A stretch of DNA of 63,166 nucleotides, from assembly GCA_013154235.1 (NCBI GenBank), contig JAADCV010000100.1, positions 1-63,166 on the forward strand, given 5' to 3'. Position numbers and translations under genes: made by a program. The notes under the pieces are model-generated. The model was given only the letters and a program-made list of their open reading frames with translations, made no database searches and was not told the DNA's origin. Position 1 is the stretch's first letter, and each line of letters begins with the position of its first letter. Positions 3,390 to 9,152 of the stretch are shown piece by piece. The stretch is from Thermoproteota archaeon. Its GTDB lineage: Archaea > Thermoproteota > Thermoprotei_A > Sulfolobales > Ignisphaeraceae.

Positions 3390-3440
3390 TCAGTGGGTAA
3401 CCGCTTCATCACAAGCTCAAGTCCCCGAAAAACTCATCAT
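3390..3440 (-). ncRNA. C/D box sRNA candidate 1
   Basis: Minus strand 5'->3': C AUGAUGA (3440-3434), 13-nt guide, D' UUGA (3420-3417), 4-nt spacer, C' GUGAUGA (3412-3406), 12-nt guide, D CUGA (3393-3390). Box C contains the UGA stop of the DtxR-like gene. Confidence 0.65.
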
Positions 3441-4096
3441 CGCCTACAGCACCTAATGATCCTCGCGAGCTCGTAATCTACACACGCCTTTTCACCGCTT
3501 GAAGCGATCTCTACCTCTATGCACTCCTCGTTCTTACCTACAACCAGCAGCTCGGACCCTACACCTATGCCTAACCTCTTCGCACGCTCGATAAGTCTCT
3601 CGCTAACAAAGCATAGCACCCTACTCACTATACAGTGCTCCCCTACCCTCATGCACGATAGAGGATCATCATTGATCGTCTCGATGTTACTCGAATCAGG
3701 ACTAGGAATAGGGTTCCCGTGCGGACACCTCTCGGGCCTTCCAAGATAGTTGTAGAGCCTGTAGAAGAACTCGTCAGGCATGTGCTCCAGCATATGAGCT
3801 AGCTTGTGGCACTGCACCTCATCGAATCCAAGCACTTTGTGTAGGAACACCTCGGCTACCCTATGCCTCCATATCACCTTCCTAGCTATGTTCAAGCCCT
3901 TAGGCGCTAGTCTAAAGCCTCTGTAGGGCTCCCAAACAAGGTAACCCTCTCTAGCTAGCCTCTGCAGAACCTTTGTCACGGTAGCTGGGGTGACCCCAAG
4001 TATCTTAGCAATGCTGCTTGTTCTAGCTACCCCATACAGCTCCTCTAGCCTAAGTACCGCAACCAGGTAGTCCTCGAGTACGCTACCTCCTTTCAT
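3437..4096 (-). CDS. DtxR/MntR-family metal-dependent repressor with C-terminal FeoA/SH3-like domain
   Basis: N-terminal wHTH (EDYLVAVLRLEE..ARTSSIAKILGVTPATVTKVLQRLAREGYL), metal-site region (HMLEHMP..CPHGNPI), FeoA-like tail. ATG 4096 chosen; divergent from feoB. Confidence 0.85.
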   Translation of the reverse strand: MKGGSVLEDYLVAVLRLEELYGVARTSSIAKILGVTPATVTKVLQRLAREGYLVWEPYRGFRLAPKGLNIARKVIWRHRVAEVFLHKVLGFDEVQCHKLAHMLEHMPDEFFYRLYNYLGRPERCPHGNPIPSPDSSNIETINDDPLSCMRVGEHCIVSRVLCFVSERLIERAKRLGIGVGSELLVVGKNEECIEVEIASSGEKACVDYELARIIRCCRR

Positions 4097-4102
4097 ATCA
4101 AT

Positions 4103-4124
4103 AAGTTTAGACGCACCTAACCTT
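4103..4124. promoter_or_regulatory. Candidate DtxR-type operator (imperfect inverted repeat AAGTTTAG-N6-CTAACCTT)
   Basis: Arms match in 7 of 8 positions. Lies in the 68-nt divergent spacer and overlaps the feoB TATA-like TTATATAC (4123-4130) by 2 nt. Confidence 0.5.
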
Positions 4125-4164
4125 ATATACTTTGCCACGCACCAGACCACGGGCCGCCAGAGCT

Positions 4165-6276
4165 ATGCTAGAGCTCAGCAACTCCTGGGAAAAGCTAAGG
4201 AAGTGCAAGCGCATCGCAGCATTAGCTGGCCAGCCCAACGTCGGCAAATCAACGCTCTTCACGAGGATAACGGGAGAGATAGCCCACGTGGGAAACTTCC
4301 CCGGAACAACCGTCGAGATAAGCGTGGGGATCGCGCATGTAGATGGAGACGAAATCTGCGTAATCGATCTCCCTGGAACCTACGGTCTATCAGCCTCGAC
4401 TGAAGAGGAGCGTGTCGCTAAGAGAATCCTTCTTAGCGGTCTCCCTCAGGTGACTATAGTGGTGGTCGACGGTATCAGCATCGAGAGAACGCTCTATCTA
4501 GCTATCCAGATTCTGGAAATGTTCCCACGTGTAGTCGTAGCGCTCAACAAGTGGGATGTGCTTCACAAGAAGGGGGTTCATATCAATATCGAGAAGCTCG
4601 CTAGGTACCTAGGGTCCCCGGTTATACCTGTATCCGCCATAACTGGCGAAGGGGTTAGGGCTCTCCTCTTAGAAGCTCTAAAGGAGATGAATAGGGTTCC
4701 CCGGAAGCCTCTTGAGGTAGATTATGGTCCTCTAGAGAGGTTCGTCAGGGAGCTCGAGGACGTTGTTAGCAAGCTAAATCTCTACCCTTCTGCGAGCCCT
4801 AGATGGATTGCTATAGCGATACTGGAGGGAGACGAGGATGTTGCTAACGATTTGCGTAGAGCTAGCGAGAATCTGTATAGAGAGGTTATTGCAATTGTTG
4901 AGAGAGCTAGAAAGGAACTTGGCGCGAACCTACCCGAGGTCATCGCTAGACAGCGCTACGCATTGGCGGAGAGAATCGTTAGGGATTGCGTTGTTAGAGT
5001 CGAGGTTAAGGAGAGCGCGTTTCCAGCTATAGACAGAGCTTTTCTCAACCCTGTTATAGGTCCGATCCTATCGGTTGCGCTTCTAGCTACAGTATTCTTC
5101 GCGGTGTTCTCAATAAACACAGGCTACCCCCTAGTGTTGATACTTAGACACGTTGGTGCATCGAGTGCAGCTGAAGCTCTGGAGAGCTATAGCTTATCTG
5201 GACTCGTAGGAGAGGCGTTCCGCATCCTAAGCGCGTACACAGCTAGCTCGCTGAAACACGTATGCGGCTCAGCGTGCTCAAACCTGATAGCGTACGGTGT
5301 CGTAGGCGGTGTAGGGGTAGTAGTTAGCTTTCTACCTCTAGTCTTCACAATAATGGTCGTGCTAGCTGCCCTCGAGGACTCTGGCCTAGGCCCTAGAATG
5401 GCTTCATCGCTACACAGCCTCTTCAGCGCCTTCGGGTTATCGGGACGCGCTGTCTACCCTATGCTAACAGCGTTTGGATGCAATGTTCCTGCCGTGCTAG
5501 CGTCTAGGGCTGCCATAGATCCCGTGGAGAGAGTTGAGATAGCCATGAGCATAGCGTTCATTCCATGCCAAGCAAGGCTCGTTGTTCTGGCTGCGTTCGT
5601 AACGTTCATATTCTCTTCGTCACCATCGCTCCAGGCAGTAGCAATGGTATCTGTCCTCCTGGGAGGCGTCTTGCTGTACCTTGCGACAGCTAAGCTCGTA
5701 AGAGTGCTGCATCGCGCATCGCCATCTCCAGAGCTCCTCCTAGAGATACCACCGATACACAGACCCTCGTTGAGGGTGATATGGTGGAACTCGTGGGAGC
5801 AAACAAAGCACTTCCTAAAGAAAGCAGGTGTTCTAATATTTGCGCTAAGCGTGGTCTCGTGGATACTCCTCCACTTCGGCTCTATGGGATACGTCGGCGA
5901 TTTGATAGAGAGGAGCTTCGCTGCGAATCTAGGGAAATTCCTAGCGCCACTCTTTGCCACGATATACGGGTTACCCCCATCTTCAGCGTGGAAAATGGGG
6001 TTCGCCACGATCGTAGGCTTCTTCGCTAAGGAGGGTATCCTCGCAGTCTTCGCGCAGCTAGGGAAGGGAAGCATAGCTGCAGCCATAGGAATGAACTCAA
6101 GGCAAGCGTTTGCAGCTCTACTCTTCTTTATGTATTACCTACCATGTCTAGCTACAGCGGTAGTGATGCACCAAGAGCTTGGGAGCATTAAAAAGACTGT
6201 TGCAGCTGTAGCCTACATGATTGGGATTGCTCTAGCTATCTCAGCTGCAGCCTACGCAGTACTTAGGTTTCTATAG
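4165..6276 (+). CDS. feoB: Ferrous iron transporter FeoB
   Basis: G-domain motifs GQPNVGKSTLF, DLPGTY, NKWD followed by a polytopic membrane domain. ATG 4165 is about 35 nt downstream of the TATA-like box. Confidence 0.9.
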   Translation: MLELSNSWEKLRKCKRIAALAGQPNVGKSTLFTRITGEIAHVGNFPGTTVEISVGIAHVDGDEICVIDLPGTYGLSASTEEERVAKRILLSGLPQVTIVVVDGISIERTLYLAIQILEMFPRVVVALNKWDVLHKKGVHINIEKLARYLGSPVIPVSAITGEGVRALLLEALKEMNRVPRKPLEVDYGPLERFVRELEDVVSKLNLYPSASPRWIAIAILEGDEDVANDLRRASENLYREVIAIVERARKELGANLPEVIARQRYALAERIVRDCVVRVEVKESAFPAIDRAFLNPVIGPILSVALLATVFFAVFSINTGYPLVLILRHVGASSAAEALESYSLSGLVGEAFRILSAYTASSLKHVCGSACSNLIAYGVVGGVGVVVSFLPLVFTIMVVLAALEDSGLGPRMASSLHSLFSAFGLSGRAVYPMLTAFGCNVPAVLASRAAIDPVERVEIAMSIAFIPCQARLVVLAAFVTFIFSSSPSLQAVAMVSVLLGGVLLYLATAKLVRVLHRASPSPELLLEIPPIHRPSLRVIWWNSWEQTKHFLKKAGVLIFALSVVSWILLHFGSMGYVGDLIERSFAANLGKFLAPLFATIYGLPPSSAWKMGFATIVGFFAKEGILAVFAQLGKGSIAAAIGMNSRQAFAALLFFMYYLPCLATAVVMHQELGSIKKTVAAVAYMIGIALAISAAAYAVLRFL

Positions 6277-6639
6277 AGATGACTTTCTCTTCAACATCTC
6301 CTCTAGCTCCTTTATCCTCTCCTCCACGCTTCTAAGCTCCTCTTGAAGCTCCTTCAGATCCTCTTCTAGAGCCTTCTTGTACTCCTTCAGCATCTCTAGC
6401 TCCTCCTCTGGAGTTGGGGGCGGAGGAGGCGGTCCGTAGTACATTGGCGGAGGGTAGTACGCAGGATACGGGTAGTAGGGTTGCTGAGGCGCTTGGTACT
6501 GCTGCGGCTGCGACTGCTGTGAGGGTTGCTGTGGATACTGCTGCGGATACTGCGGAGGGTACTGGGGGTAAGGTGGTGGGGGAGGTGGCGGAGGAGGCAT
6601 CCAGTACCTAAACCTTCTCCACCATCCAAACCATGCCAC
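6271..6639 (-). CDS. Low-complexity protein: Trp/Arg N-terminus, Pro9 plus P/Q/Y tract, C-terminal coiled coil (DUF5320-like)
   Basis: GTG start preceded by GGTGA-N6. MAWFGWWRRFRYWMPPPPPPPPPYPQYPPQY... then EEELEMLKEYKKALEEDLKELQEELRSVEERIKELEEML. Confidence 0.6.
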   Translation of the reverse strand: MAWFGWWRRFRYWMPPPPPPPPPYPQYPPQYPQQYPQQPSQQSQPQQYQAPQQPYYPYPAYYPPPMYYGPPPPPPTPEEELEMLKEYKKALEEDLKELQEELRSVEERIKELEEMLKRKSSL

Positions 6640-6650
6640 GCTCCATCACC

Positions 6651-6887
6651 TCACTTAGGTACTTCTACTCTAGCACTCTCTAGAGTCTTTAGGGCTGTCT
6701 CAAAGGCTCTCCTCCATGTTTCTATCACAGCTCTATAGAGCTCTATCGTCACCGCGTAGTAGTATGGCACTAGCATCCACTGCATCGCCACGTACATCAT
6801 TGCCATTGGATCGTAAGGCGGCGGCGCTAGATATGGGTAGTAGGGGTATGGGTATGGCGGGTAGGGCGCGTAGTATGGGTAGCTCAC
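6651..6887 (-). CDS. Low-complexity protein: Tyr/Pro-rich N-terminus plus aromatic helical C-terminal half
   Basis: GTG start 4 nt after the upstream stop, GGTGG 7 nt upstream. MSYPYYAPYPPYPYPYYPYLAPPPYDP... Confidence 0.5.
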   Translation of the reverse strand: MSYPYYAPYPPYPYPYYPYLAPPPYDPMAMMYVAMQWMLVPYYYAVTIELYRAVIETWRRAFETALKTLESARVEVPK

Positions 6888-6891
6888 GGTC

Positions 6892-7164
6892 TTACCACCA
6901 TGGGTACGGGTAGTAGGGATACGGTGGATAGTACGGTGCTCTTAGCGGAGGTAGCCAGGGATAGGGGTAGTAGCTCCATCTAGCTACCCATCCTGGGGCC
7001 CCGAATAGCCACCAGCACGCTCCCCTACCGTAGAGCCATCCCGGCCTCATCCACGGTGGTAGGTGGCTCCAGGGACCTCTTCCTGGCCATGGTCCACTCC
7101 ATCCCCATCTGTATCCTCTTCCCCATCCTCCTCTCCAGCCCCATCCGAAGGGTATCCACGCCAT
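6892..7164 (-). CDS. Low-complexity protein: Trp/Gly/Arg-rich N-terminus, Tyr/Pro-rich C-terminus (DUF5320-like N-terminus)
   Basis: ATG 7164 preceded by GGTGA-N5. MAWIPFGWGWRGGWGRGYRWGW...YYPPYPYYPYPWW. The ORF-track start at 7275 would overlap the DUF134 gene and is rejected. Confidence 0.55.
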   Translation of the reverse strand: MAWIPFGWGWRGGWGRGYRWGWSGPWPGRGPWSHLPPWMRPGWLYGRGACWWLFGAPGWVARWSYYPYPWLPPLRAPYYPPYPYYPYPWW

Positions 7165-7197
7165 TTCTCTCACCGTTTCTGTGCTACTGCTCAGAAA

Positions 7198-7205
7198 CTT
7201 ATATG
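7198..7205 (-). promoter_or_regulatory. TATA-like box (CATATAAG on minus strand) upstream of the low-complexity ORFs
   Basis: AAAAACATATAAGTT in the 76-nt spacer, about 34 nt upstream of ATG 7164. Confidence 0.35.
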
Positions 7206-7240
7206 TTTTTCTGTCATGAATCCTAAGCAGTTTCACAGAA

Positions 7241-7591
7241 TCATTTCTCGCGAGACTGAATCGAGGGAATGACAATGGGCCTCATCTCTACAAGAGCTTG
7301 CACAAGCTTCTTGCGGGCGCTATCAAGCATTCTCCAAAGCGTTCCTCTAGAAACGTTCATTCTTCTCGCTGCCTCCTCCTGAGTCAATCCCTCTAGATAC
7401 ACGAGCCTAAGGGCTTCAAGTTCATCGGGCATTATGTACACAGGCTCCTTTTGAATTGGTTTTCCACTACTGTCTATCGGTATGAAAGTGGCGCCACCGA
7501 TCTCGAACCATATGAACCTAGGCTTAGGTCTTCTGCCTGGTCCTTGCCTCCCCCAGCACCACCTCCATGGTGGCCCCCTGGCCTCTCCCAA
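7241..7591 (-). CDS. DUF134-family putative DNA-binding protein (sigma-70 region-4-like HTH)
   Basis: GRRPKPRFIWFE..F.P.. then DELEALRLVYLEGLTQEEAARRMNVSRGTLWRMLDSARKK. TTG start; W/R/G-rich N-terminal extension. Confidence 0.75.
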   Translation of the reverse strand: MGEARGPPWRWCWGRQGPGRRPKPRFIWFEIGGATFIPIDSSGKPIQKEPVYIMPDELEALRLVYLEGLTQEEAARRMNVSRGTLWRMLDSARKKLVQALVEMRPIVIPSIQSREK

Positions 7592-7608
7592 GGCTCTCGA
7601 TCCTAGTC

Positions 7609-8490
7609 CTAGGTCTGCTGACGCGCTCTTATGTACTCCCTACCCCTATACTTAACTATGGTTAGGGACCCCCTCTCTAAGTACCTTCGCAGAACCTCCA
7701 TAGCCTTATCCCCATGTTCGCGCTTGAGAAGCGATAGTGCTAGGTCTAGGGGTACTGGGTGCAGCTTCGCTATCTCTAAGAGGCTTTCTATAGTGCTAGC
7801 TCTAGCGAGAACCTCGTCTATCTCCGCCAGAGGTAGCAAGATAACTCGGTGCTTCCCGAGGTACATCGATAGCCTCTCCGCGAAGATCCTCAGTCTATCG
7901 ACTCTAGGCACCCTAACCCACTTCTCGGCTGGAGGCCTAATCGGGGCGTTGATGTACACTACGTATGGCTCCACCTTTCTGAGGGCCTCAGCTAGAAGAT
8001 CAGCATGCCAAGAACCATCGTTTACACCATCGACTAGCACCGTCTCTATAGATAGGATGCCGCTAATCTCCTTGGATAGCTCTTCGAGGCCGCTGATAAT
8101 GGCGCTGATCCTTATAGCGTTATCAGGTCTGTTGACTCTGCGAAAGACGCTTGGCGTAGCAGCGTCGAGCTTCATGGAAACGAAGTCGAATACCGTAGAG
8201 TCCTCCCTAACATCGCGTCTCCACACCAGCGAGGCATTGGATATTAGCGCTACCCGATACCCAAACTCTCTCGAGACTAGAGTAGCCGCCTTACCTAGAA
8301 GGCTGTAGAGGGTGGGCTCACCGTCACCTACAAACGTTAGGTAGTCTACCCTATCAACATTCTCTAGAGCCCGCTCAACAACTCTAGCAACTTCCTCTGG
8401 CTCGCAGTACCTACGCCTAAGTATGCTAGTCCTAATGGTTCTACCTAGCTGACAGTATATGCACGAGTAGCTGCAGGTCTTCATAGGCAC
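7609..8490 (-). CDS. Radical SAM protein (COG0731-like); true N-terminus probably lies upstream of the called start
   Basis: CSYSCIYC (CxxxCxxC) at residues 6-13 of the called ORF. The conserved YGPVLSRRLGFSLGI segment is encoded in frame upstream (to 8562) without a canonical start. Confidence 0.8.
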   Translation of the reverse strand: MPMKTCSYSCIYCQLGRTIRTSILRRRYCEPEEVARVVERALENVDRVDYLTFVGDGEPTLYSLLGKAATLVSREFGYRVALISNASLVWRRDVREDSTVFDFVSMKLDAATPSVFRRVNRPDNAIRISAIISGLEELSKEISGILSIETVLVDGVNDGSWHADLLAEALRKVEPYVVYINAPIRPPAEKWVRVPRVDRLRIFAERLSMYLGKHRVILLPLAEIDEVLARASTIESLLEIAKLHPVPLDLALSLLKREHGDKAMEVLRRYLERGSLTIVKYRGREYIRARQQT

Positions 8491-8816
8491 AACGCTTATA
8501 CCGAGAGAGAAGCCTAGGCGCCTTGATAAAACGGGTCCGTAAGCCCTAGGTATATGTGCCGTGGTTTCACCTTGCGCTAGAGAGCTAGGGATGCAGAAAA
8601 AGGTTTAGCGCTTGACATCTACTAGACACCGTTGAGCGCGGGAATCATGCCTCATCACGCACCAGATAGTTCGCTCTCACAAAGTATCGAGGGGAACTCA
8701 GCGGATCCCCGCACCATCTCAATGCTTGCTGCTACGAGCAGCAGTGCCTTACTATGTAGAACAAGGTGCTGGTCGCATATACCCAAGCGGTTCCTCGAGA
8801 CCGCGGGCTACAGCTT

Positions 8817-9152
8817 CTAGCTCTTGATCCCTATCAGCATCCTGATACTCTTAGCGTCGCCGCGCTTCACGAGCTCAAGTAGTTCGTACTCGAGCCCTGG
8901 CCTACCTAGCTTTATGGCTATCGGCTTCAGAATTAGTGAGACTAGGGCGAAGTCTGCAGACGCCTCGTCTCCCCCATACCTCTGCTTTATGAACTCGTAC
9001 GCCTCCTTGGGGTTCTCTATTAGTAGCTCCACGAATTTCTTGCCGTACTTAGCCATACACACGTTGTCGAGCATACGGAGGAAGCCTGGTATCCTGCTCT
9101 CAGCCCACTGCCTTACGTACCTTACAAGCTCCTCGATCATGGTTATAGCCAC
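8817..9152 (-). CDS. Hypothetical protein, 111 aa
   Basis: ATG-initiated ORF with coding-like composition; no recognisable motif. Confidence 0.5.
   Translation of the reverse strand: MAITMIEELVRYVRQWAESRIPGFLRMLDNVCMAKYGKKFVELLIENPKEAYEFIKQRYGGDEASADFALVSLILKPIAIKLGRPGLEYELLELVKRGDAKSIRMLIGIKS

What the first reader, a model, noticed from the sequence alone, without database searches (positions are those of the whole stretch)
6271..8607. Operon-like run: radical SAM - DUF134 regulator - low-complexity triplet, abutting the iron-uptake locus
All five genes lie on the minus strand. The order is a radical SAM gene (to 7609), a 17-nt gap, a DUF134-type HTH protein (7591->7241), a 76-nt spacer with a TATA-like CATATAAG, then the three low-complexity ORFs. 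The run ends tail-to-tail (6-nt overlap) against feoB, and the DtxR-like repressor lies just beyond feoB. The N-terminus of the DUF134 protein (GPPWRWCWGRQGPGRR) is itself W/R/G-rich, like ORF-A and ORF-C. A radical SAM enzyme next to small, unusual, repeat-rich proteins invites the hypothesis that the proteins are its substrates, by analogy with RiPP maturation (cross-linking or modification of Tyr/Trp/Pro). An Fe-S or metal-related module under DUF134 control is an alternative. Neither idea is supported beyond gene adjacency.
Basis: inference. Interest (0 to 1): 0.7.

Follow-up and report, generated by a model that had tools for sequence, protein, structure and literature searches.

The report
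Conserved archaeal iron-sulfur handling gene cluster
The five-gene run is real: it is a trimmed copy of a widespread but unstudied gene cluster of anaerobes that is genomically tied to iron-sulfur handling proteins, and its three odd, repeat-rich small proteins are conserved genes with their own regulated promoter, not leftovers or antibiotic-like peptide precursors.

Summary
All five minus-strand genes exist at the stated coordinates, with the stated gaps and the 6-nt overlap with feoB.

- **Conservation.** The same order, rSAM–DUF134–A–B–C, occurs in at least four related contigs. dN/dS is 0.05–0.3.
- **Small proteins.** ORF-A and ORF-C are the two halves of a split archaeal DUF5320 protein. 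ORF-B appears only next to coil-less ORF-A.
- **Full cluster.** In contig L089 the run continues directly into a NifX/IssA-like gene and two MinD-ferredoxin ATPases.
- **Neighbourhood statistics.** This rSAM family has NifX-like or MinD-type neighbours in 33 of 80 loci (19 of 35 with full flanks). ORF-A-type genes have DUF134 nearby in 45 of 80 loci.
- **Regulation.** The 76-nt spacer holds a TATA box followed by the palindrome TTyTGTGC-N4-GCACArAA. That layout is conserved before DUF5320, DUF134 and Thermococcus IssA-like genes. So A–B–C is its own regulated unit, probably under DUF134.
- **feoB/dtxR.** This linkage is lineage-specific: absent in L003, L089 and Hyperthermus butylicus.
- **RiPP idea.** No support: no SPASM or auxiliary cysteines, no RRE, and near-invariant "precursors".

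Best reading: an IssA/ORP-type iron-sulfide handling module with trans-acting IssA-tail-like proteins. The biochemical function is inferred, not shown.

The parts
7609..8553 (-). Radical SAM enzyme of a widespread, uncharacterised family of about 315 aa. JGI labels the family 'wyosine synthetase', but it is not TYW1. The start is uncertain: ATA at 8551-8553 aligns with the GTG start of relatives, and the first canonical start is GTG at 8490.
   Evidence: - Pfam PF04055 E=2e-13.
- No NCBIfam family reaches its cut-off; TYW1 scores 20.7 against 318.
- About 4000 homologues, with the N-terminal motif FGPVPSRRLGxSLG invariant.
- AF2 model pLDDT 90.
- Foldseek nearest hits are NifB at 6e-11, TYW1, Mmp10, viperin and RlmN.
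- Start-codon comparison.
7241..7591 (-). DUF134 (UPF0251) helix-turn-helix protein with an Arg/Trp/Gly-rich N-terminal arm. It lies 17 nt after the rSAM gene and is the presumed regulator.
   Evidence: - PF02001 66.8 bits, plus Sigma70_r4-like HTH matches.
- NF003257 E=1.7e-26.
- Adjacent to the rSAM in L001, L003, L005 and L089.
- Near ORF-A-type genes in 45 of 80 loci.
7221..7240 (-). Degenerate upstream copy of the palindromic operator (TTCTGTGAAACTGCTTAGGA), immediately after the DUF134 stop codon and upstream of the TATA box.
   Evidence: Read directly. An operator-TATA-operator layout is seen with good copies in L088, L108 and H. butylicus. Assigning this degenerate window copy to the motif is inference.
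7198..7208 (-). TATA-box-like element (AAACATATAAG) of an internal promoter for ORF-A/B/C.
   Evidence: Sequence. A TATA-like box occupies the same position in the upstream regions of dozens of ORF-A homologues. Promoter activity was not tested.
7176..7197 (-). Palindromic operator TTTCTGAGCAGTAGCACAGAAA. The consensus is TTyTGTGC-N4-GCACArAA. It lies between the TATA box and the GGTGAG Shine-Dalgarno/ATG of ORF-A.
   Evidence: - It is the only match in the 63-kb window; 0.01 are expected by chance.
- ORF-A-anchored loci hold 86 sites against about 10 in shuffles.
- The excess sites lie upstream of ORF-A, ORF-C and DUF134 genes.
- Consensus built from 74 unique sites.
- The same layout precedes Thermococcus IssA-like genes and H. 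butylicus ORF-A.
6892..7164 (-). ORF-A: 90 aa, pI 10, no acidic residues, W17 G15 P18 Y11 R8, one Cys and one His. It is the N-terminal-domain subfamily of archaeal DUF5320, with the invariant motif W.GPWPGRGPFS[HY]LPPW.RPGWL[FY]GRGACWWLF. It ends in a Tyr/Pro/Trp tail instead of a coiled coil.
   Evidence: - About 200 homologues, many flagged PF17253.
- Alignment A2.
- Composition.
- dN/dS 0.12-0.14.
6651..6887 (-). ORF-B: 78 aa, with a Tyr/Pro-rich N-terminus followed by a conserved hydrophobic/amphipathic helix (QWMLVPYYYAVTIELYRAVIETWRRAFE). It starts 4 nt after ORF-A.
   Evidence: - No Pfam or NCBIfam match.
- Found after coil-less ORF-A in 25 of 48 cases and never (0 of 21) after coil-bearing ORF-A.
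- Family alignment.
- H. butylicus homologue P0242.
- dN/dS 0.23-0.31.
6271..6639 (-). ORF-C: 122 aa. It has a cationic-aromatic N-terminus (MAWFGWWRRFRYW), a poly-Pro and Gln/Tyr-rich middle, and a strongly conserved C-terminal coiled coil (TPEEELEMLKEYKKALEEDLKELQEELRSVEERIKELEEM) of the DUF5320 type. It starts 11 nt after ORF-B.
   Evidence: - PF17253 E=2e-4, 22.7 bits, below the 27-bit cut-off.
- Homologues L065 and L035 pass the cut-off.
- Family alignment.
- dN/dS 0.01-0.08.
3437..6276 (.). Neighbouring feoB (4132-6276, +) and DtxR-like repressor (3437-4150, -). They are not part of the conserved cluster.
   Evidence: Pfam match for DtxR. feoB/dtxR is present after ORF-C in L001 and L005. 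It is absent in L003, where the MFS gene follows directly. In L089 it is replaced by NifX-MinD-MinD. It is absent in H. butylicus.

Best explanation
The run is a trimmed, lineage-specific copy of a widespread anaerobe gene cluster.

Full cluster. Its complete form is: COG0731-like radical SAM enzyme, DUF134 HTH regulator, DUF5320 small protein(s), NifX/IssA-like PF02579 protein(s), and two MinD-type ATPases with ferredoxin inserts (Orp3/Orp4-like). The window keeps only the first five genes. A convergent feoB sits where the NifX and ATPase genes follow in the sister contig L089.

Small proteins. The three low-complexity ORFs are real proteins under purifying selection. ORF-A and ORF-C are fission products of an archaeal DUF5320 protein. 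A carries the invariant W/G/R/P motif with a single Cys. C carries the coiled coil. ORF-B is a partner found only with coil-less A.

Transcription. The run is probably two units. rSAM-DUF134 is read from upstream. A-B-C is read from a promoter in the 76-nt spacer, whose TATA box is followed (and, degenerately, preceded) by the palindrome TTyTGTGC-N4-GCACArAA. A dimeric HTH protein, most likely DUF134, would bind there and block RNA polymerase recruitment.

Proposed function (inferred). A, B and C would co-assemble through their Tyr/Pro-rich segments and the ORF-C coiled coil into a cationic, aromatic matrix. That matrix would bind anionic iron-sulfide species (thioferrate-like polymers or clusters). 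[quoted passage not shown]

The radical SAM enzyme belongs to the same pathway. Its substrate is unknown.

Shown: gene reality, synteny, family assignments, neighbourhood statistics, operator conservation. Inferred: the DUF134-operator pairing, the direction of regulation, iron-sulfide binding, and any rSAM role.
For: Synteny
- rSAM-DUF134-A-B-C occurs in L001, L003 and L005.
- L089 carries rSAM-DUF134-A-B-C-NifX (with a G/R/W-rich N-terminus)-MinD/Fer4-MinD/Fer4 on one strand.

rSAM-anchored genome scan
- PF02579-like or MinD-type genes lie within 6 kb in 33 of 80 loci, and in 19 of 35 loci with full flanks.
- DUF134 lies within 6 kb in 11 of 80 loci.
- The custom labels were verified with Pfam.
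- In Pyrococcus ST04 the rSAM is directly followed by two CbiA/Fer4 ATPases.
- In Thermococcus L015 the rSAM is directly followed by an IssA-like gene.

ORF-A-anchored metagenome scan
- DUF134 in 45 of 80 loci, ORF-C in 38, NifX-like in 34, ORF-B in 23, MinD-type in 18, rSAM in 9. Most contigs are only 1-6 kb.

Small-protein family relationships
- ORF-A homologues carry PF17253 and share an invariant motif.
- Coil-bearing and coil-less forms correlate with the absence and presence of ORF-B.
- L035 is a fusion of a DUF5320 coil, a GR-rich region and a PF02579 domain.

Composition
- ORF-A: 90 aa, pI 10.1, 8 R, 0 D/E, 30 aromatic, 15 G, 18 P, 1 C.
- Thermococcus IssA-like tail: 90 aa, pI 11.5, 10 R, 0 D/E, 18 aromatic, 17 G, 17 P, 1 C.
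- Published P. furiosus IssA tail: 70 aa, 11 P, 7 cationic, 14 aromatic, 15 G, one Cys, pI 10.7; proposed to wrap anionic thioferrate (PMC5524996).

Operator
- Unique in the window, with 0.01 expected by chance.
- About 9-fold enriched in ORF-A loci.
- The excess sites lie upstream of ORF-A, ORF-C and DUF134 genes.
- Consensus.
- The same TATA-palindrome-GGTGA-ATG layout precedes Thermococcus IssA-like genes.
- It occurs twice before H. butylicus ORF-A.

Other
- dN/dS is far below 1.
Against: - No PF02579 gene and no MinD-type gene lies anywhere in the 63-kb window or in the L001, L003 or L005 flanks. The proposed partners are therefore not shown to exist in this genome.
- The similarity of ORF-A and ORF-C to IssA tails is compositional only. 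BLASTP with compositional adjustment finds nothing (E of 2 or more).
- No DUF134 or DUF5320 protein has been characterised in the searchable literature.
- DUF134 as the operator's binder is guilt by association. In H. butylicus the operator is present without an adjacent DUF134. DUF134-containing bacterial, Asgard and Hadesarchaeal loci lack this palindrome.
- Thioferrate-like iron forms in P. furiosus even without IssA (PMC8219758), so even the reference function is debated.
- The rSAM may be N-terminally truncated or may use a non-canonical start here.
Confidence: 0.6

Rival explanations
1. RiPP-like or protein-maturation system. The radical SAM enzyme post-translationally modifies ORF-A, ORF-B or ORF-C, for example by cross-linking Tyr, Trp or Pro. 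DUF134 regulates the operon.
For: - The rSAM is tightly linked with DUF134 and A-B-C in five related contigs.
- DUF5320 lies directly upstream of the rSAM in the bacterial loci L067 and L083.
- The rSAM has a C-terminal helical and beta-hairpin domain that could bind a protein partner.
- PFL-activase and Mmp10, which are protein-modifying rSAMs, are among the structural neighbours.
Against: - Only the CxxxCxxC cysteines are conserved; there is no SPASM/twitch domain or auxiliary cluster.
- There is no RRE/PqqD match; the best winged-helix E-value is 0.1.
- The small proteins are near-invariant across phyla instead of having variable cores.
- No protease or exporter gene is present in the cluster.
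- The rSAM is near ORF-A-type genes in only 9 of 80 loci, whereas NifX-like or MinD-type neighbours of the rSAM occur in 33 of 80 loci.
- In H. butylicus A-B-C has no adjacent rSAM.
Confidence: 0.12
2. Nucleic-acid-binding RG/RGG-type proteins. The W/R/G-rich small proteins and the basic arm of DUF134 bind RNA or structured DNA (for example G-quadruplexes) and form condensates, unrelated to metal handling.
For: - A computational screen listed both a DUF134 and a DUF5320 protein of Methanosarcina mazei among the four top hits for a quadruplex-binding RG motif (PMC7565180).
- ORF-A is strongly cationic, aromatic and predicted to be unstructured.
- DUF134 is an HTH protein.
Against: - The gene neighbourhood is dominated by Fe-S related families (PF02579, MinD/Fer4, rSAM), not by nucleic-acid enzymes.
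- DUF5320 is fused to a PF02579 domain in L035.
- The motif carries an invariant Cys and a near-invariant His or Tyr that are not typical of RGG boxes.
- The paper's evidence is motif matching only.
Confidence: 0.1
3. Cell-division or cytoskeletal scaffold, as proposed for the D. vulgaris ORP complex. The coiled-coil and low-complexity proteins would build a structural assembly positioned by MinD-like ATPases.
For: - The ORP complex (NifX-like and MinD/Mrp proteins) has been linked to cell division, and MrpORP localises to cell poles (PMC6345978).
- ORF-C has a strong coiled coil.
Against: - The window lineage lacks the MinD-type genes near the triplet.
- Nothing in the A, B or C sequences resembles known archaeal division proteins.
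Confidence: 0.08
4. Part of the iron-uptake locus. The run would be functionally one unit with feoB and the DtxR-like repressor and would be regulated by DtxR in response to iron.
For: - ORF-C overlaps feoB tail-to-tail by 6 nt, and the DtxR-like gene lies next to feoB.
- The same arrangement occurs in L001 and L005.
Against: - feoB/dtxR is missing at this position in L003, L089 and H. butylicus.
- The genes converge, so they cannot be co-transcribed.
- The conserved operator before ORF-A is TGTGC-N4-GCACA. It is found at loci without dtxR.
Confidence: 0.05

Closest known systems
IssA (PF2025) iron-sulfur storage protein of Pyrococcus furiosus (Vaccaro et al. 2017, PMC5524996)
   Same: - The IssA tail is Pro-rich, then cationic, aromatic and Gly-rich with W/G/R repeats and a single Cys. 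ORF-A has the same composition.
- Thermococcus IssA-like genes carry the same TATA-palindrome-GGTGA-ATG promoter layout as ORF-A.
- One of them lies directly after a member of this rSAM family.
- In L089 and L023 a PF02579 gene directly follows ORF-C.
   Different: - ORF-A, B and C have no PF02579 (NifX-like) globular domain.
- There is no detectable sequence homology to IssA-like tails.
- The tail-like parts are stand-alone proteins split over three genes.
- The window has no PF02579 gene at all.
ORP (orange protein) complex gene cluster of Desulfovibrio vulgaris, DVU2103-2109 (Fievet et al. 2011; PMC6345978)
   Same: [quoted passage not shown] The full form of the present cluster (L089, L067, L072, L043) has the same NifX plus two MinD/Fer4 core.
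   Different: - ORP is regulated by sigma-54/OrpR, not by DUF134.
- The papers read here mention no DUF5320 or rSAM component in the ORP system.
- The window copy lacks the NifX and MinD genes.
DUF5320 (PF17253) and DUF134 (PF02001/UPF0251) families
   Same: - The DUF134 protein is a clear member.
- ORF-C matches the DUF5320 coiled-coil end.
- ORF-A's homologues include proteins flagged PF17253, and they share its N-terminal motif.
   Different: - The canonical DUF5320 is one protein (N-terminal motif plus coil). Here it is split into A (motif plus aromatic tail) and C (aromatic, poly-Pro region plus coil), with an extra partner B.
- ORF-C scores below the Pfam cut-off (22.7 against 27), and ORF-A has no direct Pfam match.
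NifB (radical SAM plus NifX-like domain, FeMo-co precursor synthase)
   Same: - NifB gives the best Foldseek matches of the rSAM model (E about 6e-11, TM 0.55-0.66).
- NifB pairs a radical SAM core with a NifX-like domain, as this family does through gene neighbourhood.
   Different: - There are no conserved ligands for auxiliary K-clusters; only three Cys are conserved.
- Sequence similarity is marginal (PDB phmmer E=0.01).
- TYW1, viperin, RlmN and PFL-AE score nearly as well.

Membership tests
Radical SAM superfamily (PF04055) | CxxxCxxC cluster-binding motif and the partial TIM-barrel core | tested here: met
   CSYSCIYC is present. PF04055 E=2e-13, 51.3 bits against a cut-off of 29.5. The AF2 model aligns to rSAM cores.
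TYW1/Taw1 (wyosine synthesis), the label JGI gives to homologues | Match to the TYW1 equivalog model and a second Fe-S cluster site | tested here: not met
   TIGR03972 scores 20.7 bits against a cut-off of 318. Only three Cys are conserved in the family.
rSAM RiPP maturase system | SPASM/twitch auxiliary-cluster domain in the rSAM | tested here: not met
   No SPASM or twitch Pfam or NCBIfam match. No conserved Cys beyond CxxxCxxC.
rSAM RiPP maturase system | RiPP recognition element (PqqD-like) in the enzyme or a neighbour | tested here: inconclusive
   The C-terminal 80 aa model as helix-helix-helix-beta-hairpin. Foldseek gives only weak winged-helix hits (best E 0.1) and no PqqD/RRE among the top 50.
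rSAM RiPP maturase system | Precursor peptides with a conserved leader and variable core, plus a protease or exporter | tested here: not met
   ORF-A's motif is near-invariant across archaeal phyla. ORF-C's coil is highly conserved. No protease or transporter belongs to the conserved cluster.
DUF134 / UPF0251 (PF02001) | Pfam model above the gathering score; sigma-70 region-4-like HTH with a basic N-terminal arm | tested here: met
   66.8 bits against 27. Sigma70_r4_2 E=1e-8. NF003257 E=1.7e-26. A basic arm is seen in all homologues.
DUF5320 (PF17253) | Pfam model above the gathering score (N-terminal G/R-rich motif plus C-terminal coiled coil) | tested here: inconclusive
   ORF-C scores 22.7 bits, below 27, and matches the coil only. 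ORF-A has no direct hit. HMMER homologues of ORF-A are flagged PF17253 and share its motif. ORF-C-like proteins in L065 and L035 pass the cut-off.
IssA-type iron-sulfur storage protein | IPR003731/PF02579 globular domain | tested here: not met
   No PF02579 match in ORF-A, B or C, and none anywhere in the window.
IssA-type iron-sulfur storage protein | Pro-rich, then cationic, aromatic and Gly-rich tail with high pI and one Cys | tested here: met
   ORF-A composition compared with the Thermococcus IssA-like tail and the published values. The similarity is compositional only, with no alignment.
IssA-type iron-sulfur storage protein | Binds Fe and S as thioferrate and forms nanoparticles | not testable with these tools
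   Needs anaerobic reconstitution, Fe/S analysis and EM or Mossbauer spectroscopy.
ORP-like NifX/MinD cluster | NifX-like gene(s) plus paired MinD/Mrp ATPases with Fe-S motifs in the same locus | tested here: not met
   Absent from the window and from L001, L003 and L005. Present in the sister locus L089 and in 33 of 80 rSAM-anchored loci.

The most novel reading that the evidence does not exclude
DUF134, the DUF5320-type W/R/G proteins and this orphan radical SAM family form a previously unrecognised, widespread system in archaea and anaerobes for sensing and sequestering iron sulfide.

- DUF134 would be the missing iron/sulfide-responsive regulator. It would act through the TGTGC-N4-GCACA operator on both DUF5320 genes and IssA-type genes.
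- In hyperthermophilic Thermoproteota, the split A/B/C triplet would build a protein matrix that templates or detoxifies thioferrate-like iron without any NifX domain. Thioferrate-like iron in P. furiosus does not require IssA, which leaves room for other iron-sulfide-binding proteins.
Probability: 0.3. Interest if true: 0.8.

Novelty: new variant of a known kind. Interest (0 to 1): 0.6.

Why it matters
How strict anaerobes store, traffic and detoxify iron together with sulfide is poorly understood. IssA and the ORP complex are the only studied entry points, and their regulators and partners are unknown.

This analysis ties three families without function to that biology through synteny, a domain fusion and a shared promoter architecture. 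The families are DUF134, DUF5320 and a roughly 4000-member radical SAM family that is mislabelled as wyosine synthetase.

It also yields three directly testable items:
- a precise operator sequence for DUF134;
- a defined three-protein set (A, B, C) for reconstitution;
- a cultured organism that carries the triplet and two perfect operators (Hyperthermus butylicus, CP000493.1, around positions 569,100-570,150).

Finally, it shows that gene callers routinely miss ORF-A-type genes.

Tried and rejected
- **Literature searches** for DUF5320, DUF134, UPF0251, COG1342, COG1433, COG1149 and COG0731 returned nothing functional. Two DUF134 text hits were actually DUF1349 and DUF1345. Fievet 2011 (PMC3133258) is not held.
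- **BLASTP** of ORF-A and ORF-C against Thermococcus IssA-like proteins gave no significant alignment. I therefore dropped homology to the IssA tail and kept only the compositional analogy.
- **Foldseek of the whole rSAM model** does not discriminate. NifB ranks first, but TYW1, Mmp10, viperin, RlmN and PFL-AE are close. I did not file the enzyme as NifB-like.
- **Foldseek of the rSAM C-terminal domain** gave only weak winged-helix hits, which neither supports nor excludes an RRE.
- **Operator and DUF134 in the rSAM-anchored set.** A test of whether the operator tracks DUF134 there was not significant (5 of 11 against 21 of 69, Fisher p=0.32). The palindrome is specific to the archaeal SRGTxWR-type DUF134, DUF5320 and IssA loci, and is not a general DUF134 feature.
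- **ORF-B homologue search** found only two database proteins, probably because gene callers miss these genes. No informative fusion was found.
- **ORF-B as a membrane anchor.** By my own hand calculation, the Kyte-Doolittle mean over its most hydrophobic 19 residues is about 1.1, below the usual 1.6 threshold. I rejected this idea.
- **The upstream 111-aa ORF (8817-9152) as a sixth member.** It is syntenic only in the closest relatives and is replaced by other genes in L089, so I rejected it.

Full report
**1. What is in the sequence**

All five genes lie on the minus strand.

- A radical SAM (rSAM) ORF ends at 7609. It carries CSYSCIYC, and Pfam PF04055 gives E=2e-13.
- After a 17-nt gap comes a DUF134 protein at 7241-7591 (PF02001, 66.8 bits against a cut-off of 27).
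- A 76-nt spacer (7165-7240) contains CATATAAG at 7198-7205.
- ORF-A (6892-7164), ORF-B (6651-6887) and ORF-C (6271-6639) follow, separated by 4 and 11 nt.
- ORF-C overlaps the end of feoB (4132-6276, +) by 6 nt.
- A DtxR-like gene (3437-4150, -) lies beyond feoB.
- ORF-C matches the coiled-coil end of DUF5320 below threshold (22.7 bits against 27). ORF-A and ORF-B match no Pfam or NCBIfam model.

The one correction concerns the rSAM 5' end. The coordinate 8607 is only the upstream in-frame stop. The family-invariant N-terminus (FGPVxSRRLGxSLG) is encoded from about 8550. No ATG, GTG or TTG precedes it. ATA at 8551-8553 aligns with the GTG start of L005 and L089.

**2. The genes are real and the order is conserved**

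Close relatives of the rSAM (52-58% identity) lie on contigs L001, L003 and L005. Those contigs keep rSAM-DUF134-A-B-C in the same order. For A, B, C and DUF134, dN/dS against these relatives is 0.05-0.31, with synonymous sites near saturation.

L003 has no feoB or dtxR after ORF-C; the MFS gene follows directly. The contact with the iron-uptake locus is therefore not part of the conserved unit.

Automatic gene calls on these contigs usually find ORF-B. They miss ORF-A, often miss ORF-C, and call antisense ORFs instead.

**3. What the small proteins are**

A database search with ORF-A found about 200 archaeal proteins of 71-151 aa, many flagged PF17253. All share the near-invariant motif W.GPWPGRGPFS[HY]LPPW.RPGWL[FY]GRGACWWLF (alignment A2).

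- Bathyarchaeal and other forms continue into a C-terminal coiled coil. This is the canonical DUF5320 architecture.
- The window's type ends instead in a Tyr/Pro/Trp tail.

Among ORF-A homologues in the fetched loci, none of the 21 coil-bearing forms is followed by ORF-B. Of the 48 coil-less forms, 25 are followed by ORF-B, and 28 have a separate ORF-C in the locus.

ORF-C has a cationic-aromatic N-terminus, a poly-Pro and Gln/Tyr middle, and a highly conserved coil. ORF-B has a Tyr/Pro N-terminus and a conserved helix.

The triplet is therefore best read as a fission of an archaeal DUF5320 protein plus an added partner. Hyperthermus butylicus carries the triplet; there ORF-A is not annotated.

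**4. The wider cluster**

*Scan anchored on the rSAM.* A genome scan with the rSAM alignment returned 80 diverse archaeal and bacterial loci. I annotated six-frame ORFs with custom HMMs and motifs, and checked the labels with Pfam. Within 6 kb of the rSAM:

| Neighbour | Loci |
|---|---|
| PF02579 (NifX/IssA-like) | 28 of 80 |
| MinD-type P-loop ATPases, often with ferredoxin inserts | 26 of 80 |
| Either of the two above | 33 of 80 (19 of 35 with full flanks) |
| DUF134 | 11 of 80 |

Example clusters:
- L067: DUF5320-rSAM-NifX-MinD-MinD-DUF134.
- L083: DUF134-DUF5320-rSAM.
- Pyrococcus ST04: rSAM followed by two CbiA/Fer4 ATPases.
- Thermococcus L015: rSAM followed directly by an IssA-like gene.

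*Scan anchored on ORF-A.* A metagenome scan returned 80 loci, mostly contigs of 1-6 kb.

| Neighbour | Loci |
|---|---|
| DUF134 | 45 |
| ORF-C | 38 |
| PF02579-like | 34 |
| ORF-B | 23 |
| MinD-type | 18 |
| rSAM | 9 |

- L089 carries rSAM-DUF134-A-B-C-NifX (with a G/R/W-rich N-terminal extension)-MinD/Fer4-MinD/Fer4 on one strand. The window is this cluster cut after ORF-C.
- L035 encodes a single protein that joins a DUF5320 coil, a GR-rich stretch and a PF02579 domain.
- No PF02579 or MinD-type gene lies in the 63-kb window.

**5. A conserved operator**

The upstream regions of ORF-A homologues share three features: a TATA-like box, the palindrome TTyTGTGC-N4-GCACArAA, and a GGTGA Shine-Dalgarno sequence before the ATG.

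In the window:
- The palindrome is at 7176-7197 with one mismatch. It is the only copy in 63 kb, where 0.01 are expected by chance.
- A degenerate copy lies at 7221-7240, upstream of the TATA box.

Across loci:
- ORF-A-anchored loci hold 86 core sites, against about 10 in shuffled sequence.
- Of 121 sites in all loci, 85 lie within 250 nt upstream of ORF-A, ORF-C, DUF134 or other cluster genes. The remaining 36 equal the random expectation.
- The consensus from 74 unique sites is TTTTGTGCAATTGCACAAAA.
- The same TATA-palindrome-GGTGA-ATG layout precedes the IssA-like genes of two Thermococcus contigs.
- Two perfect copies flank the TATA box before H. butylicus ORF-A.

A site between the TATA box and the expected start point is the classic position of an archaeal repressor. 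This last statement rests on established knowledge and is an inference here.

DUF134 is the obvious candidate binder because of its co-occurrence. This is not shown:
- The palindrome is absent from bacterial, Asgard and Hadesarchaeal DUF134 loci.
- In the rSAM-anchored set the association is not significant.

**6. Link to known biology**

*IssA.* IssA of P. furiosus has a PF02579-type domain followed by a tail. The tail is Pro-rich, then cationic, aromatic and Gly-rich, with one Cys. It is proposed to wrap anionic thioferrate (PMC5524996).

| Protein segment | Length | Pro | Gly | Cationic | Aromatic | Cys | Acidic | pI |
|---|---|---|---|---|---|---|---|---|
| ORF-A | 90 aa | 18 | 15 | 8 Arg | 30 | 1 | 0 | 10.1 |
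| Thermococcus IssA-like tail | 90 aa | 17 | 17 | 10 Arg | 18 | 1 | 0 | 11.5 |
| P. furiosus IssA tail | 70 aa | 11 | 15 | 7 | 14 | 1 | not stated | 10.7 |

There is no alignable homology between ORF-A or ORF-C and these tails.

*ORP complex.* In the D. vulgaris ORP complex, NifX-like and Mrp/MinD proteins bind and pass on Fe-S clusters (PMC6345978).

*Caveat.* Thioferrate-like iron forms in P. furiosus even without IssA (PMC8219758).

*Literature.* No accessible paper connects DUF134, DUF5320 or this rSAM family with these systems.

**7. The radical SAM enzyme**

- The family has about 4000 members, and only the three rSAM cysteines are conserved.
- It is not TYW1: 20.7 bits against a cut-off of 318.
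- The AF2 model (pLDDT 90) is closest to NifB (E=6e-11), but other rSAM cores score similarly.
- The C-terminal 80 residues look weakly winged-helix-like, with no RRE match.
- Its strongest genomic partners are NifX-like and MinD/Fer4 genes, not DUF5320.

A RiPP-type role is therefore not supported. A protein-modifying role cannot be excluded.

**8. Verdict**

The RiPP analogy is not.
- The most likely mechanism is a DUF134-gated A-B-C unit whose products form a cationic, aromatic, coiled-coil assembly that binds iron-sulfide species in trans, like an IssA tail. This is inference at about 0.6 for the overall picture, and lower for the biochemical step.
- It is a new variant of a known kind (IssA/ORP-type clusters). 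It comes with a newly defined operator, a split DUF5320 architecture and a cultured test organism.

Noticed in passing
window 8484-8607 (-): The rSAM gene has no canonical start codon upstream of its family-invariant N-terminus. ATA at 8551-8553 aligns with the GTG start of L005 and L089. L001 also lacks ATG, GTG and TTG there, yet the amino-acid sequence is conserved through many synonymous changes. Possible explanations are a non-canonical start, a recent start-codon loss with use of GTG 8490 or ATG 8484, or an assembly error.
   Followed up: partly
L168 7752-7997 (H. butylicus CP000493.1); L001 7328-7609; L003 7455-7733: ORF-A-type genes, and often ORF-C, are not called by the gene finders used for these records. 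Spurious antisense ORFs are called instead. In the complete H. butylicus genome ORF-B and ORF-C are annotated but ORF-A is not.
   Followed up: partly
L007 903-1415; L086 6436-6921; L168 6579-7088; also L042, L046, L114: A TrmO_N (PF01980, UPF0066) family gene sits next to the rSAM or the DUF5320/IssA-like genes in six loci from different lineages. This may be a further, weaker member of the neighbourhood.
   Followed up: partly
L035 9567-10316 (-): A single Nitrososphaeria protein fuses a DUF5320-type coiled coil, a GR-rich stretch and a PF02579 NifX-like domain (Pfam 56.2 and 27.4 bits).
   Followed up: yes
L015 7669-7881 (+): Between two IssA-like genes of a Thermococcus contig lies a 70-aa ORF with an MPRGMGRYGRGRG N-terminus followed by two hydrophobic, membrane-like segments. 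It may be a membrane-anchored relative of the RG-rich small proteins.
   Followed up: no
L089 8730-9917 (+): In L089 a 395-aa ORF directly follows the two MinD/Fer4 genes of the full cluster. By eye it resembles MoeA (molybdopterin molybdenumtransferase). This was not checked against Pfam.
   Followed up: no
window 8817-9152 (-): A 111-aa ORF with no Pfam or NCBIfam match lies upstream of the rSAM. It is syntenic in L001, L003 and L005 but not in L089. Its function is unknown.
   Followed up: partly
window 3437-6276 compared with L003 8338-8479: Relative to L003, the window, L001 and L005 carry a feoB-dtxR pair between ORF-C and the MFS transporter gene. This is an insertion or deletion polymorphism of the iron-uptake pair among close relatives.
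   Followed up: yes
L007 1450-1910 (-): A Thermococcus contig has two tandem coil-less ORF-A-like genes (62 and 73 aa) directly after a NifX-like gene. That NifX-like gene has a long Pro/Gln/Tyr linker resembling the middle of ORF-C and ends in a Cys-containing region.
   Followed up: partly
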